From contig JBJXEY010000096.1 in NCBI GenBank assembly GCA_046153355.1, positions 1 through 10,226 on the forward strand: a stretch of 10,226 bases of DNA. Reading direction: 5' to 3'. Source of the stretch: Burkholderiales bacterium (GTDB taxonomy: Bacteria; Pseudomonadota; Gammaproteobacteria; Burkholderiales; SG8-39). A program made the position numbers and the translations under genes. This document shows, one piece after another, positions 3,903 through 8,733 of the stretch. The first letter of the stretch is position 1, and each line of letters opens with the position of its first letter. Under the pieces are notes generated by a model that had not been told where the DNA came from, searched no databases, and saw only the letters and a list, made by a program, of their open reading frames with translations.

Positions 3903-3948
3903 CCGCACAAAACGCACAGCGCCAACCTGTGGCGCTGTGCGGGTCCTA
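3903..3948. terminator. Bidirectional intrinsic terminator between the convergent MBL and HNH genes
   Basis: Perfect 12-bp stem CGCACAGCGCCA / TGGCGCTGTGCG with a 5-nt loop, nested in a longer imperfect repeat ACCCGCAC...GTGCGGGT. A U-run follows on the minus strand (TTTTGTG) and a weaker T-rich tail on the plus strand. Confidence 0.7.
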
Positions 3949-4509
3949 CTTTCGCAGCCGGCTAGTTTTAGGCACGCGGTCCAGCAAAAAGGCCATTTGA
4001 TCCGCGAGGATATGGCGATTGCGCAGAATAAAGTGCTCGTGCCGGTTGGGCGTGTAAGGCACGAATAGCAGCGGCATCCGCGCCTGCTCTGGCGTTCTAT
4101 CCGCTTTGCGAGAATTACACGCACGACACGCCGCGACAATATTCGTCCACAGATGGCGCCCGCCTTTGGATACCGGCAAAACGTGATCGCACGACAAATC
4201 GCCATCGCTAAAACCAGCACCGCAGTACGCGCACAAATGGCAATCACGCGCGAACAGCAAATCGTTATTGACCGCGGGCGTACGCGCCAACAGGCGTGAA
4301 GCATGCCCAACGCCGCGAAGCGCCAGGATCGACTGCGTTTCCAGGCGTGAACGGCGTCCATCGCGCTGAAATCCGCCGCGGTATTCGCACACCCGCTCGC
4401 CCAAAGACCACGCAACCTGCCTCTTGGCGTGGTAGGTCATTGCCTCGTCCATGCTGGCCCAAGCTTGTGGCAGGCCGGCCTGATCGAGCGTGAGGATCAT
4501 GGTTTTCAT
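3946..4509 (-). CDS. HNH endonuclease (McrA-like HNH nuclease family)
   Basis: 187-aa ORF. The HNH core is recognisable: CHLCAYCG...DHVLPVSKGG...N..ACRACNSRK, i.e. the Cys4 zinc knuckle plus catalytic His/Asn. It is co-directional with, and 93 nt downstream of, the SPFH gene. Confidence 0.8.
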   Translation of the reverse strand: MKTMILTLDQAGLPQAWASMDEAMTYHAKRQVAWSLGERVCEYRGGFQRDGRRSRLETQSILALRGVGHASRLLARTPAVNNDLLFARDCHLCAYCGAGFSDGDLSCDHVLPVSKGGRHLWTNIVAACRACNSRKADRTPEQARMPLLFVPYTPNRHEHFILRNRHILADQMAFLLDRVPKTSRLRK

Positions 4510-4602: not shown

Positions 4603-5745
4603 TCAAGCTCGGATTTTCACCAAATCCTTGAGAATGCCATCCAACCCGCCATATACCGAGATCTTGTCGATCTTCTCGGTCACCCTTTCCAAGGTTTCCA
4701 GCTCCTTCAAGCGCAGCGCAACTGGGTTGTCTTCCATCACCTTTGCCGTGTTCAGCAAAGACCGCGTTGCTGCGGTCTCCTCGCGCCGGCGAATCACATT
4801 GGCCTGCGCCGCCTTTTCGGCCTCGACGACGCGATTCAAGATTGTTTTCATCTCTCCCGGCAGGATGATGTCTTTCACCCCGACGGATTCGATTTCCAAT
4901 CCGTAACCTTGCACGCGCCGCTTGATAGTGTCGCCAACCGCCTCGTTGGTAATGCTCTTGTTCTCGAGCAATTCATCGAGGCTGCGCGTACCCACTGCCG
5001 CGCGCAGGCCGAATTGCAGCTCCTTGTACAGAAACTCCATTGGCTTGGCCTGCTTCGTAAATGCCAGCATGGCATCGGTGATGCGATAACCCGCGGTCAG
5101 GTTCACCCGCAAGCTCACCTTGTCGCGCGTCAGGATTTCCTGGCCGGCAACCTCCAACACCTGCAAACGCAGATCGATGTTTTCCACCTTCACCTCGCGC
5201 AGATGGCGCCAGAAATAGTGCATTCCAGATTCGAGCAAGCCCGAAAACTTTCCATCCACGTAGAGCATCCCGACGCTGTGGGAAGGCACCATGGCGACGA
5301 AAACCCCTTCGCTGCCAAGAAACTTCAACGGGCCGCGCGAGACGAATGCCGTTACTTTGGGAACCAATTCGGGCGCAATCGTGCATTCGGTCCCGATGTC
5401 AACTTTCTCAAACGCCACATCGATATAGCCCCTCCAATAAAGGCGACGCGTATTAGGACGCAAAATCTCGACCAGCACTCCGCCCTCATATCGCAATGCG
5501 ATTTGTGCAGCGCCCACTTCGATGGTCACGAACTCGCGCGCCACCAGATCCGGCTCCGCCATACGCAGGTAGTCGACCAACTTGTGATCGAACTGGGTTT
5601 GCGCCAACGAAAACTTCTCGACAGTAAGGCGATGCAAGGGATCGAAATAGGTGTATTCGCCGGCGCCAAGAAAGTCTACAAAATCGCCTTTGCGAAGCAG
5701 CATGGCGCGCTCGTCTTTCTTTACAAACACTTTAGTCATCAACAT
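4603..5745 (-). CDS. SPFH/band-7 (stomatin/slipin-like) domain protein, predicted cytoplasmic (no N-terminal TM helix)
   Basis: The ORF-track 447-aa frame is trimmed to the ATG (complement of 5743-5745), which has AAGGAG 7 nt upstream. The start is MLMTKVFVKKDERAML. The C-terminal half has SPFH hallmarks (GLEIESVGVKDIILPGEMKTILNRVVEAEKAAQANVIRRREETAATRSL...NPVALRLKELETLE). No hydrophobic membrane anchor is present. Confidence 0.8.
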   Translation of the reverse strand: MLMTKVFVKKDERAMLLRKGDFVDFLGAGEYTYFDPLHRLTVEKFSLAQTQFDHKLVDYLRMAEPDLVAREFVTIEVGAAQIALRYEGGVLVEILRPNTRRLYWRGYIDVAFEKVDIGTECTIAPELVPKVTAFVSRGPLKFLGSEGVFVAMVPSHSVGMLYVDGKFSGLLESGMHYFWRHLREVKVENIDLRLQVLEVAGQEILTRDKVSLRVNLTAGYRITDAMLAFTKQAKPMEFLYKELQFGLRAAVGTRSLDELLENKSITNEAVGDTIKRRVQGYGLEIESVGVKDIILPGEMKTILNRVVEAEKAAQANVIRRREETAATRSLLNTAKVMEDNPVALRLKELETLERVTEKIDKISVYGGLDGILKDLVKIRA

Positions 5746-6006
5746 TGTTTTTCTCCTTCTCATAAAAATGGTTCCGGCTTCCCGGCCGTTCGAGGGACAA
5801 CCGTGTTGCAAGCAAGGGAGACAAGCCGCGCCGCCCGCGATCGACCAATCCAATCTCATATTCGATCGGATAGACGGCCACGTATGGCTGTTGCTTTCTC
5901 GCCAACCTGCGCCAACGGCGCACATTTCGAACGGCTGGCGCGGCAAACCACTTGCCGCCGAAGCCGAACCCGGGCACTACATAAAACAGGCCTTTCAAGG
6001 ACCTAG

Positions 6007-6080
6007 GTTTTCCAGCGGGATTTGAACCCGCGACCTATCGGTTATCAGCCGATTGCTCTACCCAACTGAGCCATGGAAAT
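6007..6080 (-). tRNA. tRNA-Ile(GAT)-like, no encoded CCA, discriminator C, A1.A72 mismatch
   Basis: Hand fold of minus strand: ATTTCCA TG GCTC AGTTGGGTA GAGC A ATCGG CTGATAA CCGAT AGGTC GCGGG TTCAAAT CCCGC TGGAAAA C. The anticodon loop CUGAUAA is canonical. Pos 1 (A) cannot pair with pos 72 (A). Confidence 0.65.
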
Positions 6081-6153
6081 GGAGCGGAAGGTAAGAATCG
6101 AACTTACGACCTCGGGCCATGCCGCCCGCGCTCAACCACTGAGCTACATCCGC
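6080..6153 (-). tRNA. tRNA-like gene with CAU anticodon in a 6-nt anticodon loop (non-canonical; possible pseudo-tRNA); CCA encoded, its terminal A shared with pos 1 of the downstream Ile gene
   Basis: Minus strand: GCGGATG TA GCTC AGTGGTT GAGC G CGGGC GGCATG GCCCG AGGTC GTAAG TTCGATT CTTAC CTTCCGC T CCA. It has a perfect 5-bp anticodon stem but only 6 loop nucleotides. There is a U.U mismatch at 6:67 and a shortened D-loop. Confidence 0.5.
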
Positions 6154-6303
6154 ACGTATCCATCGTTCCCGCATCGCGGTATGCGCCCATCCAATTTTCA
6201 GGACGAGCGCACCAGGGAGGTCTCAAGAGCCTCGCCCGCTGACAACGCGTTCGCGACGAATTCTTTTTCTGCCAACTGTGGCAGTGGATATGGCAATAAA
6301 AAT

Positions 6304-6382
6304 TGGCGCCGCCGGTAGGACTCGAACCCACAACTTCCGCGTTCGAAGCGCGGCACTCTGATGCCAATTGAGTTACGGCGGC
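6304..6382 (-). tRNA. tRNA-Arg(TCG), CCA encoded
   Basis: GCCGCCG TA ACTC AATTGGCATCA GAGT G CCGCG CTTCGAA CGCGG AAGTT GTGGG TTCGAGT CCTAC CGGCGGC G CCA. All stems pair, with one G.U in the T-stem. Confidence 0.8.
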
Positions 6383-6388
6383 ATAAAT

Positions 6389-6465
6389 TGGGGTGATCGA
6401 CCCGATTCGAACGGGCATCTACTTGGTTCACATCCAAGTGCTTTGCCGATTAAGCTACGATCAAC
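6389..6465 (-). tRNA. tRNA-His(GTG) with G-1 and C73, CCA encoded
   Basis: G(-1) TTGATCG TA GCTT AATCGGCA AAGC A CTTGG ATGTGAA CCAAG TAGAT GCCCG TTCGAAT CGGGT CGATCAC C CCA. G-1/C73 is the bacterial His identity. Pos 1:72 is U.C. Confidence 0.75.
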
Positions 6466-6471
6466 GCTGAC

Positions 6472-6549
6472 TGGTCAGTGCGGTGAGATTCGAACTCACG
6501 ACCTCCGCGTTCCAAGCGCGGCGCGCTAGCCTGGCTGCGCTACACACTG
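6472..6549 (-). tRNA. tRNA-Pro(TGG), CCA encoded
   Basis: CAGTGTG TA GCGC AGCCAGGCTA GCGC G CCGCG CTTGGAA CGCGG AGGTC GTGAG TTCGAAT CTCAC CGCACTG A CCA. Confidence 0.85.
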
Positions 6550-6557
6550 AATAAATT

Positions 6558-6633
6558 TGGCAGGGACGGCGCGATTCGAACGCGCAACCCCGAGCTTCAA
6601 AGGCTCGTGCTCTACCGATTGAGCTACATCCCG
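6558..6633 (-). tRNA. tRNA-Gln(TTG), CCA encoded, G73
   Basis: CGGGATG TA GCTC AATCGGTA GAGC A CGAGC CTTTGAA GCTCG GGGTT GCGCG TTCGAAT CGCGC CGTCCCT G CCA. Pos 1:72 is C.U, compatible with the known weak 1:72 pair of Gln tRNAs. Confidence 0.8.
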
Positions 6634-6641
6634 ATAAAACA

Positions 6642-6717
6642 TGGCGCCGCCGGCACGGCATCGAACCGGCCTCTCGGGGGCTTCAAACCCGCGCTAATCC
6701 TTCTCAGCTACAGCGGC
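6642..6717 (-). tRNA. tRNA-Phe(GAA)-like, irregular (U.C at 31:39, one extra bulged nucleotide in 3' T-stem strand), CCA encoded
   Basis: GCCGCTG TA GCTG AGAAGGAT TAGC G CGGGT TTGAAGC CCCCG AGAG GCCGG TTCGATG CCG(T)GC CGGCGGC G CCA. Confidence 0.55.
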
Positions 6718-6724
6718 TATGTTT

Positions 6725-6801
6725 TGGTGCTGTCGGTCACGCATCGAACGGACGACCTCCCGCTTACAAGGCGGGTGCTCTTCCCACTGAGCTACGACAG
6801 C
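6725..6801 (-). tRNA. tRNA-Thr(TGT), CCA encoded, with one extra bulged nucleotide in the 3' T-stem strand
   Basis: GCTGTCG TA GCTC AGTGGGAA GAGC A CCCGC CTTGTAA GCGGG AGGTC GTCCG TTCGATG CG(T)GAC CGACAGC A CCA. All other stems are perfect. Confidence 0.7.
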
Positions 6802-6809
6802 GTAATAAA

Positions 6810-6885
6810 TGGCATCCCCGGCAGGATTCAAACCTACGGCCTGCGGATTCGTAATCCGCCGCTCTATCCTCTGAGCTACGGGGAT
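6810..6885 (-). tRNA. tRNA-Arg(ACG), CCA encoded
   Basis: ATCCCCG TA GCTC AGAGGATA GAGC G GCGGA TTACGAA TCCGC AGGCC GTAGG TTTGAAT CCTGC CGGGGAT G CCA. The T-loop has U56 with A at the D-loop position expected to pair with it (apparent A19-U56 covariation). Confidence 0.8.
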
Positions 6886-6887
6886 TT

Positions 6888-6963
6888 TGGCGAACCGTGC
6901 GGGGCTCGAACCCGCTACCACCGGCTTGAAGGGCCGGGCGCGCGGCGCTTTGCATTGCGGTTC
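6888..6963 (-). tRNA. tRNA-Glu(TTC)-like, non-canonical (C33, A8, degenerate D-arm lacking G18G19, C.A at 7:66), CCA encoded
   Basis: GAACCGC AA TGC AAAGCGCCGC GCG C CCGGC CCTTCAA GCCGG TGGTA GCGGG TTCGAGC CCCGC ACGGTTC G CCA. The T-arm and anticodon stem are perfect. It starts 2 nt after the Arg(ACG) gene. Confidence 0.5.
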
Positions 6964-6986
6964 CTAAAATTGATATTTCTGCCAGC

Positions 6987-7048
6987 CCACCCGGCGAGGT
7001 ACAAAGGGAATCGTGTGTGAGGTCACGATTCGCCCGCCTCGCCGGGTG
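6987..7048. other. 62-nt compound hairpin (12-bp outer stem, 8-bp inner stem) in the spacer between the Glu-like and Leu-like tRNA genes
   Basis: Outer stem CACCCGGCGAGG (6987-6998) / CCTCGCCGGGTG (7037-7048). Inner stem GAATCGTG (7008-7015) / CACGATTC (7024-7031) with an 8-nt loop. No U-tract follows on either strand. Confidence 0.5.
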
Positions 7049-7135
7049 ACGACAGAACTTATTGCCACATCCAAATTTTCAAAGAGCAATCCGCCTTGTT
7101 CCGGTCTCTATGCCGGCGCGGTTACAGCAAATTCC

Positions 7136-7213
7136 TGGTGCCCCACCCGAGATTCGAACTCGGAGAATCCGGTTTCTAAGACCGGCGCGTATGCCAGATT
7201 CCGCCAGCGGGAC
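7136..7213 (-). tRNA. tRNA-Leu(TAG)-like with short (5-nt) variable loop, i.e. class-I architecture; A73; CCA encoded
   Basis: GTCCCGC TG GCG G AATCTGGCATA CGC G CCGGT CTTAGAA ACCGG ATTCT CCGAG TTCGAAT CTCGG GTGGGGC A CCA. The D-arm is Leu-type (GCG/CGC 3-bp stem, long D-loop). The acceptor pairs with two G.U. There is no long variable arm. Confidence 0.6.
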
Positions 7214-7235
7214 ATTGCTAAAAATCGAACGGACA

Positions 7236-7275
7236 ACAAAAAGCCCGGGGACCTTGCGGATCAACCCGGGCTTTG
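7236..7275 (-). terminator. Intrinsic terminator (minus-strand orientation) 22 nt upstream of the first tRNA of the array
   Basis: Minus strand reads AAGCCCGGG-TTGATCCGCAAGGTC-CCCGGGCTT followed by TTTTGTTG. The plus strand has the same stem but only a weak T-rich tail. Confidence 0.6.
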
Positions 7276-7634
7276 CTGTTCGTTCTATTGAACGCTTACA
7301 TCAAAAACTTCTCCCGAATTGTTCCTGTCCGCTTCGGCTCATGACCGCCATTTAGCGAAAAGCCGGCGGTATAGGAGTCGCGGTCATTTACCTGCGCCAG
7401 TCGCGTGGTCGCGATTGACACCGGAACGACGATGGACCAAGCGAAACACCGAGCGTCTGGCGACATTGATCCCACGGCGCTACGCCGCTCTATCGATCTC
7501 TGGAATGTGGCTGTGTTCGGTTGCATGGCTTTGGCTTACTTCGATTCCTGGTTAAACGGGGTCGCATCAGGTCTGGATACGATGACAACGCAGCAGAGTC
7601 TAAACAGCGTTTTACTGCTTGTCAATCATTTTAT

Positions 7635-7669
7635 GCAAGTATATTTCATATTCTGTAAGGTTTGCTATA
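7635..7669 (+). promoter_or_regulatory. Sigma70-type promoter with extended -10 (TGcTATAAT) for the XRE regulator gene
   Basis: TATAAT at 7664-7669 is preceded by TGC (TGn), with a weak -35 (ATTTCA) 17 nt upstream. It lies in an AT-rich stretch ~30 nt upstream of the RBS GAGGG and the ATG at 7701. Confidence 0.5.
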
Positions 7670-7700
7670 ATTCAGGCTTCGATTTGTGAGGGTCGAATCC

Positions 7701-7943
7701 ATGACATCCAGTACTGCAAAGCCGCGCCGGCTCAAATGGCGCACCCGCGTAGTAATGGCCGAACGCGGCGTTCGTTCCGTATCAGCGCTTCGCCGCAAAC
7801 TTGAGGATCTGGGCATTTCCATCTCCGATGCCCAACTGGGCCGCATCATTGACGGCAGATCCAGTCATTTCAATTCCATTGTCGTCGGCGGACTGTTGAC
7901 GGCCTTGAACTGCGGTTTGACTGACCTATTCGCTGTTGCCTAG
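7701..7943 (+). CDS. XRE-family (Cro/CI-type) helix-turn-helix transcriptional regulator, 80 aa
   Basis: The ORF-track 7686..7943 frame is trimmed to ATG 7701 (GAGGG 8 nt upstream). The HTH_XRE pattern is RVVMAERGVRSVSALRRKLEDLGISISDAQLGRIIDGRSSHFNSIVVGGLLTAL. Confidence 0.7.
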   Translation: MTSSTAKPRRLKWRTRVVMAERGVRSVSALRRKLEDLGISISDAQLGRIIDGRSSHFNSIVVGGLLTALNCGLTDLFAVA

Positions 7944-8385: not shown

Positions 8386-8733
8386 ATGAAAGCTACCGTG
8401 ATTGGCATCATGTCGCAAAGCAAAATTCGCGAGAGAATATTGTCGATCGCCCGTGGAGAGTACAAACCCAAACCTGATGAGCCGAAAATCTGGTTTACCT
8501 CAATGCGATCACTTGCCGAAGTGTTGAGCGACGAGAATCGCGCGCTTCTAAAGATTATCGAAGATACCAAGCCCCAGTCCATATCCTCCTTGGCGCAGGC
8601 AACCGGCCGCAAGCCGGGCAACCTTTCACGTACCCTCAATACAATGTCGAATTACGGCATTGTCGAGATGAAACGCGAGCGCAATCAGGTGCGCCCGATA
8701 GCGAAGGCCACTGAGTTTCGAATTGTTGCGTAG
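8386..8733 (+). CDS. Small winged-HTH (ArsR/MarR-like) putative DNA-binding protein / predicted transcriptional regulator, 115 aa
   Basis: The ORF resembles the COG4190-like small regulator architecture: N-terminal region ...SIARGEYKPKPDEPKIWFTSMRSLAEVLSDENRALLKII, then a wHTH (PQSISSLAQATGRKPGNLSRTLNTMSNYGIVEMKRE) and a C-terminal strand. The family assignment is from memory and was not searched. Confidence 0.55.
   Translation: MKATVIGIMSQSKIRERILSIARGEYKPKPDEPKIWFTSMRSLAEVLSDENRALLKIIEDTKPQSISSLAQATGRKPGNLSRTLNTMSNYGIVEMKRERNQVRPIAKATEFRIVA

What the first reader, a model, noticed from the sequence alone, without database searches (positions are those of the whole stretch)
7136..7213. Leu(UAG) anticodon on a class-I body: Leu-type D-arm and A73 but a 5-nt variable loop
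The anticodon stem-loop is perfect (CCGGT-CUUAGAA-ACCGG), the discriminator is A73 and the D-arm closely matches bacterial tRNA-Leu (GCG...AATCTGGCATA...CGC). Only 5 nt (ATTCT) separate the anticodon and T stems, where every known bacterial tRNA-Leu carries a long class-II variable arm. The gene is either a novel type-I leucine-family tRNA or a tRNA of altered identity, possibly a decoy or a mis-charging species. Both possibilities are unusual.
Basis: seen in the sequence. Interest (0 to 1): 0.7.

Follow-up and report, generated by a model that had tools for sequence, protein, structure and literature searches.

The report
Short-arm leucine tRNA in mobile array
This is a real leucine tRNA gene that lacks the usual long extra arm, but such short-arm leucine tRNAs turn out to be common in phages and in mobile tRNA gene arrays like the one it sits in, so it is an unusual-looking member of an existing, little-discussed group rather than a new kind of molecule.

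Summary
A 78-nt tRNA gene lies at 7136-7213 on the minus strand. It has anticodon UAG, A73, encoded CCA, a Leu-type D-arm (3-bp stem) and a 5-nt variable loop.

The premise that every bacterial tRNA-Leu has a long arm is wrong. The gene is the first of at least 10 tRNA genes in a horizontally spread tRNA array (operator/promoter, array, slipin, HNH endonuclease; RtcB in relatives) on a Burkholderiales MAG contig.

The same body plan occurs in at least 145 viral contigs, in GenBank phages (KVP40, Cronobacter, Vibrio, Mycobacterium, Gordonia and Mesorhizobium phages), in other MAG arrays, and as all four Leu genes of the studied Anabaena trn operon. With the anticodon left free, 119 of 121 viral matches carry Leu anticodons and A73. 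The E. coli-type LeuRS determinants (A73, A14, A15-U48, G18G19, A20a, U54-A58) are near-invariant. Ser and Tyr in the same arrays keep their long arms.

A type-I tRNALeu charged by LeuRS is already published for Streptomyces coelicolor.

Best reading: a functional, leucine-accepting backup tRNA, although charging by a proteobacterial LeuRS has not been shown. No evidence supports a decoy or a mischarging species.

Novelty: new member of a known kind. Interest: modest.

The parts
7136..7213 (-). tRNA-Leu(UAG), type I: 7-bp acceptor stem (two G.U pairs), 3-bp D stem with G13.A22, 5-nt variable loop AUUCU ending in U48, A73, encoded CCA
   Evidence: ARAGORN. Rfam 51.9 bits. MFE fold is the cloverleaf. 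Family model R1 scores 78.2 bits, the best hit in the window. 95% identical in L156 and L161, against 42-62% for the leader.
7234..7271 (-). Conserved GC-rich hairpin (GCCCGGG...GCAA...CCCGGGC) followed by a U tract, ending about 20 nt before the tRNA. Terminator-like, possibly an attenuator.
   Evidence: Sequence. Conserved in L156 (90%) and L161 (72%). The terminator scan reports only partial sites here (7247-7230 on -, 7267-7282 on +), not the full hairpin. Function is inferred.
7296..7526 (-). Small leader ORF (76 aa) ending just upstream of the hairpin. Its C-terminus NGGHEP.R...IREKFLM* is kept in L156.
   Evidence: Whether it codes for a protein is not established.
7597..7660 (-). Sigma-70-like promoter TTGACA-17-TAGACT (7625-7597), with a conserved AT-rich near-palindrome (consensus ATGCAAAATATTTGCAT) directly upstream. 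Operator-like.
   Evidence: Promoter scan. Three-locus alignment. The role is inferred.
7686..7943 (+). Divergently transcribed Cro/C1-type HTH (HTH_26) gene, the candidate regulator of the array. The same gene sits at the same place in L158 and L161.
   Evidence: Pfam, weak, E = 3e-4. Synteny. The role is inferred.
6886..7135 (-). Conserved 250-nt stretch between Leu and the next tRNA. It holds a long hairpin (6986-7050) and a sub-threshold tRNA-like element (6888-6963).
6006..6885 (-). The rest of the tRNA array: Arg(acg), Thr(tgt), a weak Phe-like(gaa), Gln(ttg), Pro(tgg), His(gtg), Arg(tcg), a tRNA-like gene with a 6-nt loop, and Ile(gat).
4603..5742 (-). Slipin (SPFH/Band 7) gene directly downstream of the array, a conserved partner of the array in all relatives.
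   Evidence: Pfam. P0001 is 100% identical, 379 aa, NCBI 'MAG: slipin family protein [Burkholderiales bacterium]', contig 10226 bp. Synteny.
3946..4509 (-). HNH endonuclease, a conserved partner of the array and the type of gene reported next to L-arrays.
   Evidence: Pfam and PHROGs. 83% identical in L156. PMC8421152.

Best explanation
The gene encodes a working leucine tRNA that reads CUN codons (CUA and CUG at least) but has lost the long variable arm. It belongs to a large family of short-arm ('type I') tRNA-Leu genes carried by phages and by horizontally transferred tRNA arrays. Bacterial LeuRS of the E. coli / Aquifex type does not use the long arm as an identity element. It reads A73 and the shape of the tRNA elbow and core (U8-A14, A15-U48, G18G19, A20a, U54-A58), and this tRNA keeps all of these. 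Leu is therefore the only one of the three class-II tRNA species that can lose the arm and still be charged, while SerRS and bacterial TyrRS substrates keep it. In this Burkholderiales contig the gene is the first tRNA of an array. Upstream lie a conserved operator/promoter, a small leader ORF and a terminator-like hairpin. Downstream come slipin and HNH genes, and relatives also carry the RNA ligase RtcB inside the array. By analogy with the Anabaena trn operon, the array is probably silent normally and switched on when translation or the tRNA pool is damaged, giving a backup decoding set. SHOWN: the anatomy, the family membership, conservation of the identity elements, the coupling to Leu anticodons, the Leu-specific loss of the arm, and the synteny. 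INFERRED: charging with leucine by the host LeuRS, conditional expression, and the backup role.
For: (1) Anatomy and fold. Of 121 unique sequences, 119 carry Leu anticodons (TAG 54, CAA 28, TAA 27, CAG 5, GAG 3, AAG 2) and 119 have A73. For the window's own D-loop variant, every match with an intact acceptor stem carries a Leu anticodon. (3) In 126 diverse members, A73, A14, A20a, U54 and A58 are 126/126, A15 is 125, U48 is 124 and G19 is 124. Position 13:22 is never Watson-Crick, so the D stem has 3 bp as in class-II tRNAs. (4) Covariation: 98.2% of cells are paired, 19 of 20 pairs show double changes, and the score is 1.05 against 0.23 in shuffles and 0.12-0.18 when partners are slid. (5) In the same viral loci Leu is 229 short / 54 long, Ser 2 short / 92 long and Tyr 1 short / 46 long. 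(6) Orthologues in related islands are 95% identical, the stem changes preserve pairing (U2.G71 to C2-G71; C5-G68 to U5.G68), and the leader is only 42-62% identical. (7) A model built only from viral members scores the window gene at 78.2 bits. (8) Literature: the long arm is not a determinant for E. coli LeuRS and arm-less variants stay active (PMC9976931). A. aeolicus behaves similarly (PMC2377443). The S. coelicolor type-I tRNALeu is leucylated (PMC6614811). [quoted passage not shown] (9) HNH and rtcB linkage of such arrays.
Against: No aminoacylation or expression data exist for this gene or this host. The one direct cross-test in the literature is negative: E. coli LeuRS (described as charging only type II) and SpurLeuRS did not charge the Streptomyces type-I tRNALeu(CAA) (PMC6614811). 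That tRNA has C48, so it lacks the U48 partner of the A15-U48 pair this family keeps, but the result still shows a proteobacterial LeuRS need not accept a 5-nt loop. The window's D-loop has one more nucleotide before G18G19 than E. coli tRNALeu, and that spacing matters for E. coli LeuRS. A strong terminator-like hairpin lies between the only recognisable promoter and the gene, so expression may be low or conditional. The acid-gel data from Anabaena show charging but not which amino acid, and the paper's text does not say which tRNAs went undetected. The covariation set was chosen by ARAGORN, which favours cloverleaves. R1 separates Leu from other class-I tRNAs by only about 10 bits.
Confidence: 0.75

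Rival explanations
1. Uncharged decoy or sponge. The RNA is made but not aminoacylated, and it soaks up tRNA-directed toxins (anticodon or variable-arm nucleases), or feeds RtcB-linked signalling, to protect housekeeping tRNALeu.
For: The authors of the Anabaena study raise a 'sponge' role for array tRNAs (PMC8421152). The array sits with RtcB in relatives. It also contains clearly non-decoding tRNA-like genes, including the one with a 6-nt loop. E. coli LeuRS failed on a heterologous type-I tRNALeu.
Against: A decoy for nucleases that attack class-II tRNALeu should mimic the long arm, not lack it. Near-invariance of A73, A15-U48 and A20a, the exclusive use of Leu anticodons covering all six Leu codon groups, and the encoded CCA are what is expected of a charged decoder. 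23 of 26 Anabaena array tRNAs are charged in vivo.
Confidence: 0.1
2. Altered identity or mis-charging. The class-I body is recognised by a synthetase other than LeuRS and inserts another amino acid at CUN codons.
For: LeuRS does not read the anticodon, so in principle body and anticodon can be uncoupled. Aberrant gel mobility of two charged Anabaena array tRNAs (Phe, Ile) left misacylation open for those species.
Against: No identity element of another synthetase is present. From established identity rules: there is no G3:U70 (C3-G70 here), the anticodon UAG does not fit the anticodon-reading synthetases that share A73 (Val, Ile, Met, Phe, Lys, Arg, Pro), and SerRS needs the long arm. The D-arm and core are Leu-type. 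If the body had another identity, anticodons would not be restricted to Leu across 119 of 121 family members.
Confidence: 0.05
3. Silent relic. The gene is an intact-looking but unexpressed passenger of an old mobile element in this genome.
For: A terminator-like hairpin lies directly upstream. Neighbouring array members are degenerate: a weak Phe-like gene at 33 bits, a tRNA-like element at 24 bits, and the 6-nt-loop gene. L-arrays are silent under standard conditions.
Against: It is 95% identical across three islands whose leaders have diverged to 42-62%, all stem changes preserve pairing, and the promoter/operator and hairpin are conserved. That pattern indicates purifying selection, not decay.
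Confidence: 0.1

Closest known systems
Short-arm tRNA-Leu genes of phages (e.g. Vibrio phage KVP40 tRNA-Leu-1/-2, Cronobacter phage LPCS28 tRNA-Leu(tag), Vibrio phage vB_ValS_X1, Mycobacterium phage MAckerman, Gordonia phage Fryberger, Mesorhizobium phage Cp1R7A-A1)
   Same: 72-78 nt. They share the Leu-type D-arm with a 3-bp stem, A15/U48, A73 and a 5-nt variable loop, and they sit in tRNA clusters. The T-arm and 3' acceptor strand of the Mesorhizobium phage Leu(caa) differ from the window's at one base, and overall identity is 80%.
   Different: Those genes are on phage genomes, while the window's gene is in a chromosomal island of a Burkholderiales MAG. I found no paper that discusses them as a class; they exist as database annotations.
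The four tRNA-Leu genes of the Anabaena/Nostoc PCC 7120 trn operon, an 'L-array' on plasmid delta
   Same: All four (taa, gag, tag, caa) are 75-78 nt with the same body. Ser(gct) and Tyr(gta) in that operon keep long arms. An HNH endonuclease gene is adjacent, and the operon is co-regulated with rtcB. The array tRNAs are induced by translational stress and 23 of 26 are charged in vivo.
   Different: That array is cyanobacterial, plasmid-borne and has 26 genes, controlled by the RHH repressor TrcR through direct repeats. Here there are 10-12 genes, an HTH_26 neighbour, a palindromic operator-like site, a leader ORF plus hairpin, and a slipin gene.
Streptomyces coelicolor type-I tRNALeu(CAA) (Fan et al., NAR 2019, PMC6614811)
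   Same: A bacterial tRNALeu with a 5-nt variable loop that coexists with type-II tRNALeu and a single LeuRS, and is leucylated at roughly half the type-II efficiency. A five-nucleotide loop is the minimum length.
   Different: Its loop is ACAGC (C48, not U48), and A73 is not an identity element there. It is charged by ScoLeuRS through a special leucine-specific domain and not by E. coli LeuRS. Whether it is array-borne was not examined here.
Animal mitochondrial tRNALeu (e.g. human mt-tRNALeu(UUR))
   Same: Class-I shape, with identity set by A73 and A14 (PMC9976931).
   Different: It is organellar, has a floppy structure and its own LeuRS. No sequence relationship was tested.

Membership tests
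tRNA (Rfam RF00005) | Score at or above the curated gathering score; cloverleaf with conserved U8, A14, G18G19, U33, G53-U54-U55-C56, A58, C61 | tested here: met
   51.9 bits against 29. ARAGORN call. The MFE fold is the cloverleaf. All listed bases are present.
Bacterial tRNALeu (substrate of E. coli-type LeuRS) | Discriminator A73 | tested here: met
   A73 in the window gene and in 126/126 family members. Rule taken from PMC9976931.
Bacterial tRNALeu (substrate of E. coli-type LeuRS) | Core and elbow elements: U8-A14, A15-U48 Levitt pair, G18G19, A two bases after G19 (A20a), U54-A58 | tested here: met
   All are present at the sequence level in the window gene. In the family: A14 126, A15 125, U48 124, G18 126, G19 124, A20a 126, U54/A58 126 of 126. 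The D-loop has one extra base before G18 compared with E. coli tRNALeu.
Bacterial tRNALeu (substrate of E. coli-type LeuRS) | Leucine anticodon (NAG or YAA) | tested here: met
   UAG.
Bacterial tRNALeu (substrate of E. coli-type LeuRS) | Long class-II variable arm (a hallmark of cellular tRNALeu, but not an identity determinant in E. coli or A. aeolicus) | tested here: not met
   5-nt loop AUUCU. So it is not a canonical class-II tRNALeu. The D stem still has the class-II form (3 bp, G13.A22).
Bacterial tRNALeu (substrate of E. coli-type LeuRS) | Is actually leucylated by LeuRS | not testable with these tools
   Needs an in-vitro or in-vivo aminoacylation assay. Precedents point both ways.
Short-arm (type-I) tRNALeu family of phages and tRNA arrays | Leu-type D-arm with 3-bp stem, 5-nt loop ending in U48, A73 and a Leu anticodon; similarity to members | tested here: met
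   A model built from 90 viral members, without the window or its relatives, scores it at 78.2 bits, the top hit in the window and among the top Leu hits. The margin over other tRNAs is about 10 bits. blastn hits to phage tRNA-Leu genes.
Short-arm (type-I) tRNALeu family of phages and tRNA arrays | Located in a dense tRNA cluster of a phage or mobile element | tested here: met
   It is the first of at least 10 tRNA genes in 1.2 kb. The module occurs in different chromosomal contexts in relatives.
L-array / tRNA array unit | Long array (Tran et al.: at least 20 tRNA genes at 2 or more per kb; Santamaria-Gomez et al.: up to 43 genes, spread horizontally) | tested here: inconclusive
   Density is met (about 8 per kb), but the window has only 10-12 genes. 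Related islands have 19-20 (L158, L161). Definitions from the abstracts listed.
L-array / tRNA array unit | Neighbouring HNH homing endonuclease; rtcB linkage | tested here: met
   HNH at 3946-4509. RtcB lies inside the array in L157, L158, L161 and L162 but is absent from the window and L156. Literature.
L-array / tRNA array unit | Silent, then induced under translational stress | not testable with these tools
   Only cis-elements were seen: promoter/operator, leader ORF and hairpin.
S. coelicolor-type type-I tRNALeu | 5-nt variable loop on a tRNALeu that coexists with type-II species | tested here: inconclusive
   The 5-nt loop is met. The host's other tRNALeu genes are not on this contig. 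This gene has U48 where Streptomyces has C48, and the recognition mode differs.

The most novel reading that the evidence does not exclude
[quoted passage not shown] Mobile-element and phage tRNA-Leu genes shed the arm because LeuRS alone among the class-II synthetases allows it. That makes them invisible to host or competitor effectors that recognise or cut class-II variable arms (retron-Eco7 and Septu cut the tRNATyr variable loop; VapC52 cuts at variable or anticodon loops). On this reading, the Burkholderiales island (operator/promoter, leader ORF plus attenuator-like hairpin, array with short-arm Leu, RtcB, slipin, HNH) is a stress-induced cassette that replaces and repairs damaged tRNAs.
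Probability: 0.2. Interest if true: 0.65.

Novelty: new member of a known kind. Interest (0 to 1): 0.33.

Why it matters
For this gene alone, little changes: it is one more short-arm tRNA-Leu in a mobile tRNA array.

The wider pattern deserves attention. In phages and horizontally spread arrays, tRNA-Leu has very often lost its class-II arm, including all four Leu genes of the best-studied array, while Ser and Tyr almost never have. I found no paper that treats this as a phenomenon. It fits what is known about LeuRS recognition. It gives annotators a rule: a Leu-type D-arm with A15/U48, A73 and a 5-nt loop still means Leu.

It also raises a testable question that touches current work on tRNA-targeting immunity and phage tRNAs as anti-defence: is arm loss neutral, or does it protect against arm-directed nucleases? 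And it offers natural substrates for asking which LeuRS enzymes accept type-I tRNALeu.

Tried and rejected
- Megablast of the whole window against phages found no match. Distant blastn of the array against plasmids gave only scattered single-tRNA hits.
- Exact look-ups of the window's HNH and TctC proteins found nothing on record. The source was identified through slipin homologues instead.
- The genome-collection scan with the window's D-loop variant returned only 4 loci, one of them a chance match, and did not return the window's own genome. It is therefore not a census of cellular genomes.
- Literature searches for an explicit description of phage or array short-arm tRNA-Leu found none.
- Phage Gaia needs its own tRNA-Leu-CAA for lysogeny (PMC10865867), which could have given in-vivo proof. 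I could not retrieve its gene, so the lead stays unresolved.
- The first 50 kb of the Anabaena delta plasmid has no tRNA. The operon lies in the last 6 kb. That paper's supplements are not held.
- The conserved spacer after the Leu gene matches no Rfam family. The YrlA hit (20 bits against 69) and the mir-491 hit are noise. Its fold z-score is only -2.2.
- I considered whether the leader ORF is enriched in codons for the array's amino acids, as in classical attenuators. By eye about half of its residues belong to those amino acids, roughly as expected, so I did not pursue it.
- An alternative fold with a long variable arm is rejected. 78 nt leaves no room for one, and the MFE fold is the class-I cloverleaf.
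- TrcR-type regulation is rejected as a direct homologue: TrcR is an RHH protein, whereas the neighbour here is HTH_26.

Full report
**1. What is at the coordinates**

ARAGORN calls a 78-nt tRNA-Leu(tag) at 7136-7213 on the minus strand. Rfam's tRNA model matches 7139-7213 at 51.9 bits, against a gathering score of 29, with E = 4.7e-9.

The RNA reads GUCCCGC UG GCG(G) AAUCUGGCAU(A) CGC G CCGGU CUUAGAA ACCGG AUUCU CCGAG UUCGAAU CUCGG GUGGGGC A CCA. CCA is also encoded. The 78-mer folds on its own into exactly this cloverleaf, with a 3-bp D stem and no long arm. The gene is on the minus strand.

**2. Context in the window**

The gene is the 5'-most member of a tight minus-strand array at 6006-7213. 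The order is Leu(tag), Arg(acg), Thr(tgt), a weak Phe-like gene, Gln(ttg), Pro(tgg), His(gtg), Arg(tcg), a tRNA-shaped gene with a 6-nt loop, and Ile(gat). A sub-threshold tRNA-like element lies at 6888-6963.

Downstream on the same strand come a slipin (SPFH) gene and an HNH endonuclease. Upstream, transcribed divergently, is a small Cro/C1-type HTH gene. The outer flanks are ordinary metabolic genes: FGE-sulfatase, an enolase-superfamily gene, MBL, TctC and cupin.

The slipin protein is 100% identical to an NCBI protein from a 10,226-bp contig of a 'MAG: Burkholderiales bacterium'. The window is therefore that whole contig.

**3. Relatives of the locus**

Contigs encoding slipins of 76-81% identity carry the same module: HTH, then a tRNA array, then slipin, then HNH. 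In several of them an RtcB RNA ligase gene sits in the middle of the array.
- L156 (a Betaproteobacteria MAG) has the module in the same chromosomal context as the window.
- L157, L158 and L161 have it in different contexts, next to integrase, IS66 and toxin-antitoxin genes. The module is therefore mobile.

Short tRNA-Leu genes recur in these arrays. L156 has Leu(tag) of 78 nt and L161 has Leu(tag) of 77 nt, both at the head of the array as in the window. L158 has Leu(taa) of 78 nt. Ser(gct) at 93 nt and Tyr(gta) at 88 nt in the same arrays keep their long arms.

The window's Leu gene is 95% identical to those of L156 and L161. The leader between promoter and tRNA is only 42-62% identical. The stem differences keep pairing: U2.G71 becomes C2-G71, and C5-G68 becomes U5.G68. 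That pattern indicates purifying selection on a structured RNA.

**4. The gene belongs to a large family**

A distant blastn of the 91-nt region against GenBank phages hit 110 records. Many hits are annotated tRNA-Leu genes of 72-78 nt in phages of Vibrio (including KVP40), Cronobacter, Mycobacterium, Gordonia, Streptomyces, Caulobacter and Mesorhizobium. All those inspected share the Leu-type D-arm, A73 and a 5-nt loop, except one Gordonia gene with a 7-nt loop.

I then scanned IMG/VR with a pattern that fixes only a Leu-type D-loop, U33, class-I spacing and the T-loop, and leaves the anticodon free.
- Of 121 unique sequences, 119 carry a leucine anticodon (TAG 54, CAA 28, TAA 27, CAG 5, GAG 3, AAG 2).
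- 119 have A73, and 105 have a perfect 7-bp acceptor stem.

The window's own D-loop variant (AAUCUGGCA) occurs in 25 more viral contigs and in 3 genuine MAG loci that hold tRNA clusters, two of them dense arrays. One of those has 17 tRNAs in 4.2 kb, including three short Leu genes. Every match with an intact acceptor stem has a Leu anticodon.

Running ARAGORN over all fetched loci gave these counts for the viral contigs:
- Leu: 229 short, 54 long.
- Ser: 2 short, 92 long.
- Tyr: 1 short, 46 long.

Among Leu genes that the pattern did not select, 87 are short and 54 long, and the short ones cover all six Leu anticodon types.

Finally, the experimentally studied trn operon of Anabaena/Nostoc PCC 7120 (plasmid delta) has four Leu genes, taa, gag, tag and caa. 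All are 75-78 nt with the same body, next to a 90-nt Ser, an 87-nt Tyr and an HNH gene.

**5. Structure and identity elements across the family**

I aligned 126 diverse members, most of them under 80% identical to each other. The class-I cloverleaf is paired in 98.2% of cells. 19 of 20 pairs show compensatory double changes. The covariation score is 1.05, against 0.23 in column shuffles and 0.12-0.18 when partners are slid. One caveat: ARAGORN selected the sequences, which favours cloverleaves.

The bases that define leucine identity for E. coli-type LeuRS are A73, the A15-U48 Levitt pair, G18G19, A20a, and the tertiary pairs G18:U55, G19:C56 and U54:A58. The review that lists them states that the long arm is not a determinant and that variants without it remain active (PMC9976931). 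A. aeolicus behaves similarly (PMC2377443). These bases are nearly invariant in the family: A73 126/126, A14 126, A15 125, U48 124, G18 126, G19 124, A20a 126, U54/A58 126.

Position 13:22 is never a Watson-Crick pair, since A22 is invariant. The D stem therefore has 3 bp, as in class-II tRNAs. This suggests descent from class-II tRNALeu by loss of the arm.

A covariance model built from 90 viral members, with the window and its relatives left out, scores the window gene at 78.2 bits. That is the best hit in the window and sits among the other short Leu genes at the top of the list (L161 83.1, Anabaena Leu-caa 79.3, L127 78.4, L156 75.5). The margin over the best non-Leu tRNAs is only about 10 bits.

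**6. How it most likely works**

The simplest reading is a leucine-accepting decoder of CUN codons. Bacterial LeuRS ignores both the anticodon and the long arm. SerRS and bacterial TyrRS depend on the arm (established identity rules; for Leu). This explains why only Leu loses the arm in compact mobile arrays.

Published precedent exists. S. coelicolor has a type-I tRNALeu(CAA) with a 5-nt loop that its LeuRS charges with kcat/Km of 6.25, against 14.2 s-1 uM-1 for a type-II species. Five nucleotides is the minimal loop length (PMC6614811). [quoted passage not shown] Four of the 26 are short Leu genes and only three tRNAs went undetected, so at least one short Leu is charged in vivo. The paper's text does not name them, and acid gels do not identify the amino acid.

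The array as a whole matches the 'L-array' class: it is horizontally spread, sits next to an HNH homing endonuclease, is functionally linked to rtcB, and is silent until translation is stressed.

The window shows cis-elements consistent with conditional expression:
- a sigma-70-like promoter (TTGACA-17-TAGACT, 7625-7597, minus strand), conserved in L156 and L161, with a near-palindrome beside it;
- a small leader ORF whose C-terminus is conserved;
- a strong conserved hairpin plus U tract (7271-7234) ending about 20 nt before the tRNA.

Regulation and the backup role are inferences.

**7. What argues against, and the rivals**

No data exist for this gene or this host. In the only direct cross-test, E. 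coli LeuRS did not charge the Streptomyces type-I tRNALeu, and the authors describe EcLeuRS as charging only type II. That tRNA has C48, so it lacks the U48 partner of the A15-U48 pair this family keeps. The negative result may not transfer, but it stops me from treating charging as proven.

- Decoy or sponge (0.10): it fits the RtcB context and the presence of non-decoding tRNA-like genes in the array. It does not explain the strict retention of LeuRS determinants, the Leu-only anticodons, or why a decoy would lack the very arm that marks its supposed model.
- Mis-charging (0.05): it lacks any positive determinant. There is no G3:U70, the anticodon does not fit the other A73-using synthetases, and there is no long arm for SerRS.
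- Silent relic (0.10): it is contradicted by 95% conservation against a diverged leader.

**8. Comparison with what is known, and novelty**

The closest relatives are the short-arm tRNA-Leu genes of phages and of the Anabaena L-array (same body plan and context). Next is the published S. coelicolor type-I tRNALeu (same loop length, different core base and recognition mode). More distant are the mitochondrial tRNALeu.

The gene fails one hallmark of canonical cellular tRNALeu, the class-II arm, so I do not file it there. It meets every tested feature of the short-arm family.

I rate it a new member of a known kind. The kind exists in databases and, for Streptomyces, in the literature. I found no paper that describes the phage/array family or the Leu-specific loss of the arm as such. 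A cyanobacterial survey merely lists tRNALeu variable loops of 5-18 nt (PMC6933170).

**9. The most novel reading not excluded**

Defence nucleases that cut class-II variable loops are now known. Retron-Eco7 and Septu act on tRNATyr, and phage T5 tRNATyr escapes through a different loop (PMC13096335). VapC52 cuts at variable or anticodon loops (abstract). Arm loss in mobile tRNA-Leu might therefore be a counter-defence trait, and the island a rescue-and-repair cassette. I give this about 0.2.

**10. Verdict**

Interest is 0.33. The gene is ordinary for its family, but the family-wide pattern is under-described and experimentally tractable.

Noticed in passing
window 6080-6153 (-); also L156 7559-7633, L157 7577-7650, L158 7575-7648, L161 7578-7651: A tRNA-shaped gene whose 'anticodon' loop has only 6 nt and no U33. 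The stem and the rest of the body are conserved in every related island, but the loop sequence varies freely (GGCAUG, CGUGUG, CCCAAA, CGCAAU). It ends in CCA and overlaps the next tRNA (Ile or Met) by one base. It cannot decode normally, and its role is unknown.
   Followed up: partly
window 6888-6963 (-): An unannotated, sub-threshold tRNA-like element (Rfam tRNA 24.4 bits against 29; family model R1 32.3 bits). It has a good T-arm, acceptor stem and CCA, a defective D-arm, and the loop CCUUCAA (Glu-like UUC, with C at position 33). It is 93% identical in L156 but not conserved in L161.
   Followed up: partly
window 6645-6717 (-): A weak tRNA (Rfam 33.2 bits; ARAGORN does not call it) with a GAA (Phe) loop and a U.C mismatch in the anticodon stem. 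It may be decaying.
   Followed up: no
window 6964-7135 (-): A conserved non-coding stretch between tRNA-Leu and the tRNA-like element, 73-86% identical in L156 and L161. It contains a long hairpin (6986-7050) whose distal part changes sequence between loci while staying self-complementary. It matches no Rfam family.
   Followed up: partly
window 7234-7660 (-): The array leader. A conserved promoter-like site (7625-7597) has an AT-rich near-palindrome just upstream. A 76-aa ORF (7526-7296) follows, with the C-terminus NGGHEP.R...IREKFLM* kept in L156. Then comes a strong hairpin plus U tract (7271-7234) about 20 nt before the first tRNA. The layout resembles a leader-peptide attenuator, which would suit a stress-induced tRNA array. 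This is untested.
   Followed up: partly
L157 5388-6437, L158 5162-6382, L161 5619-6839, L162 540-1760: In relatives an RtcB RNA ligase gene is embedded in the middle of the array. The sub-array downstream of it is conserved (Trp, Asn, His, Gln, Lys, Arg(tcg), the 6-nt-loop gene, Ile/Met). From my own knowledge, several of these are classic anticodon-nuclease targets. The window and L156 lack RtcB.
   Followed up: partly
window 4603-5742 (-) and 3946-4509 (-): A slipin (SPFH/Band 7) gene always sits between the array and the HNH endonuclease in this island family. HNH linkage to tRNA arrays is published, but I found no mention of a slipin partner. Its role is unknown.
   Followed up: no
window 6006-6080, 6389-6464, 6558-6633 (-): In the Rfam alignment, several array tRNAs (Ile, His, Gln) have a non-standard 1:72 pair. 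The His gene appears to start with U rather than an encoded G-1. This was not examined further.
   Followed up: no
window 8386-8733 (+): A winged-helix gene (Pfam HVO_A0114, E = 1e-19) with a strong match to a phage protein family of unknown function (phrog_11214, E = 5e-35), lying just beyond the HTH gene. It may mark the edge of the mobile module.
   Followed up: no
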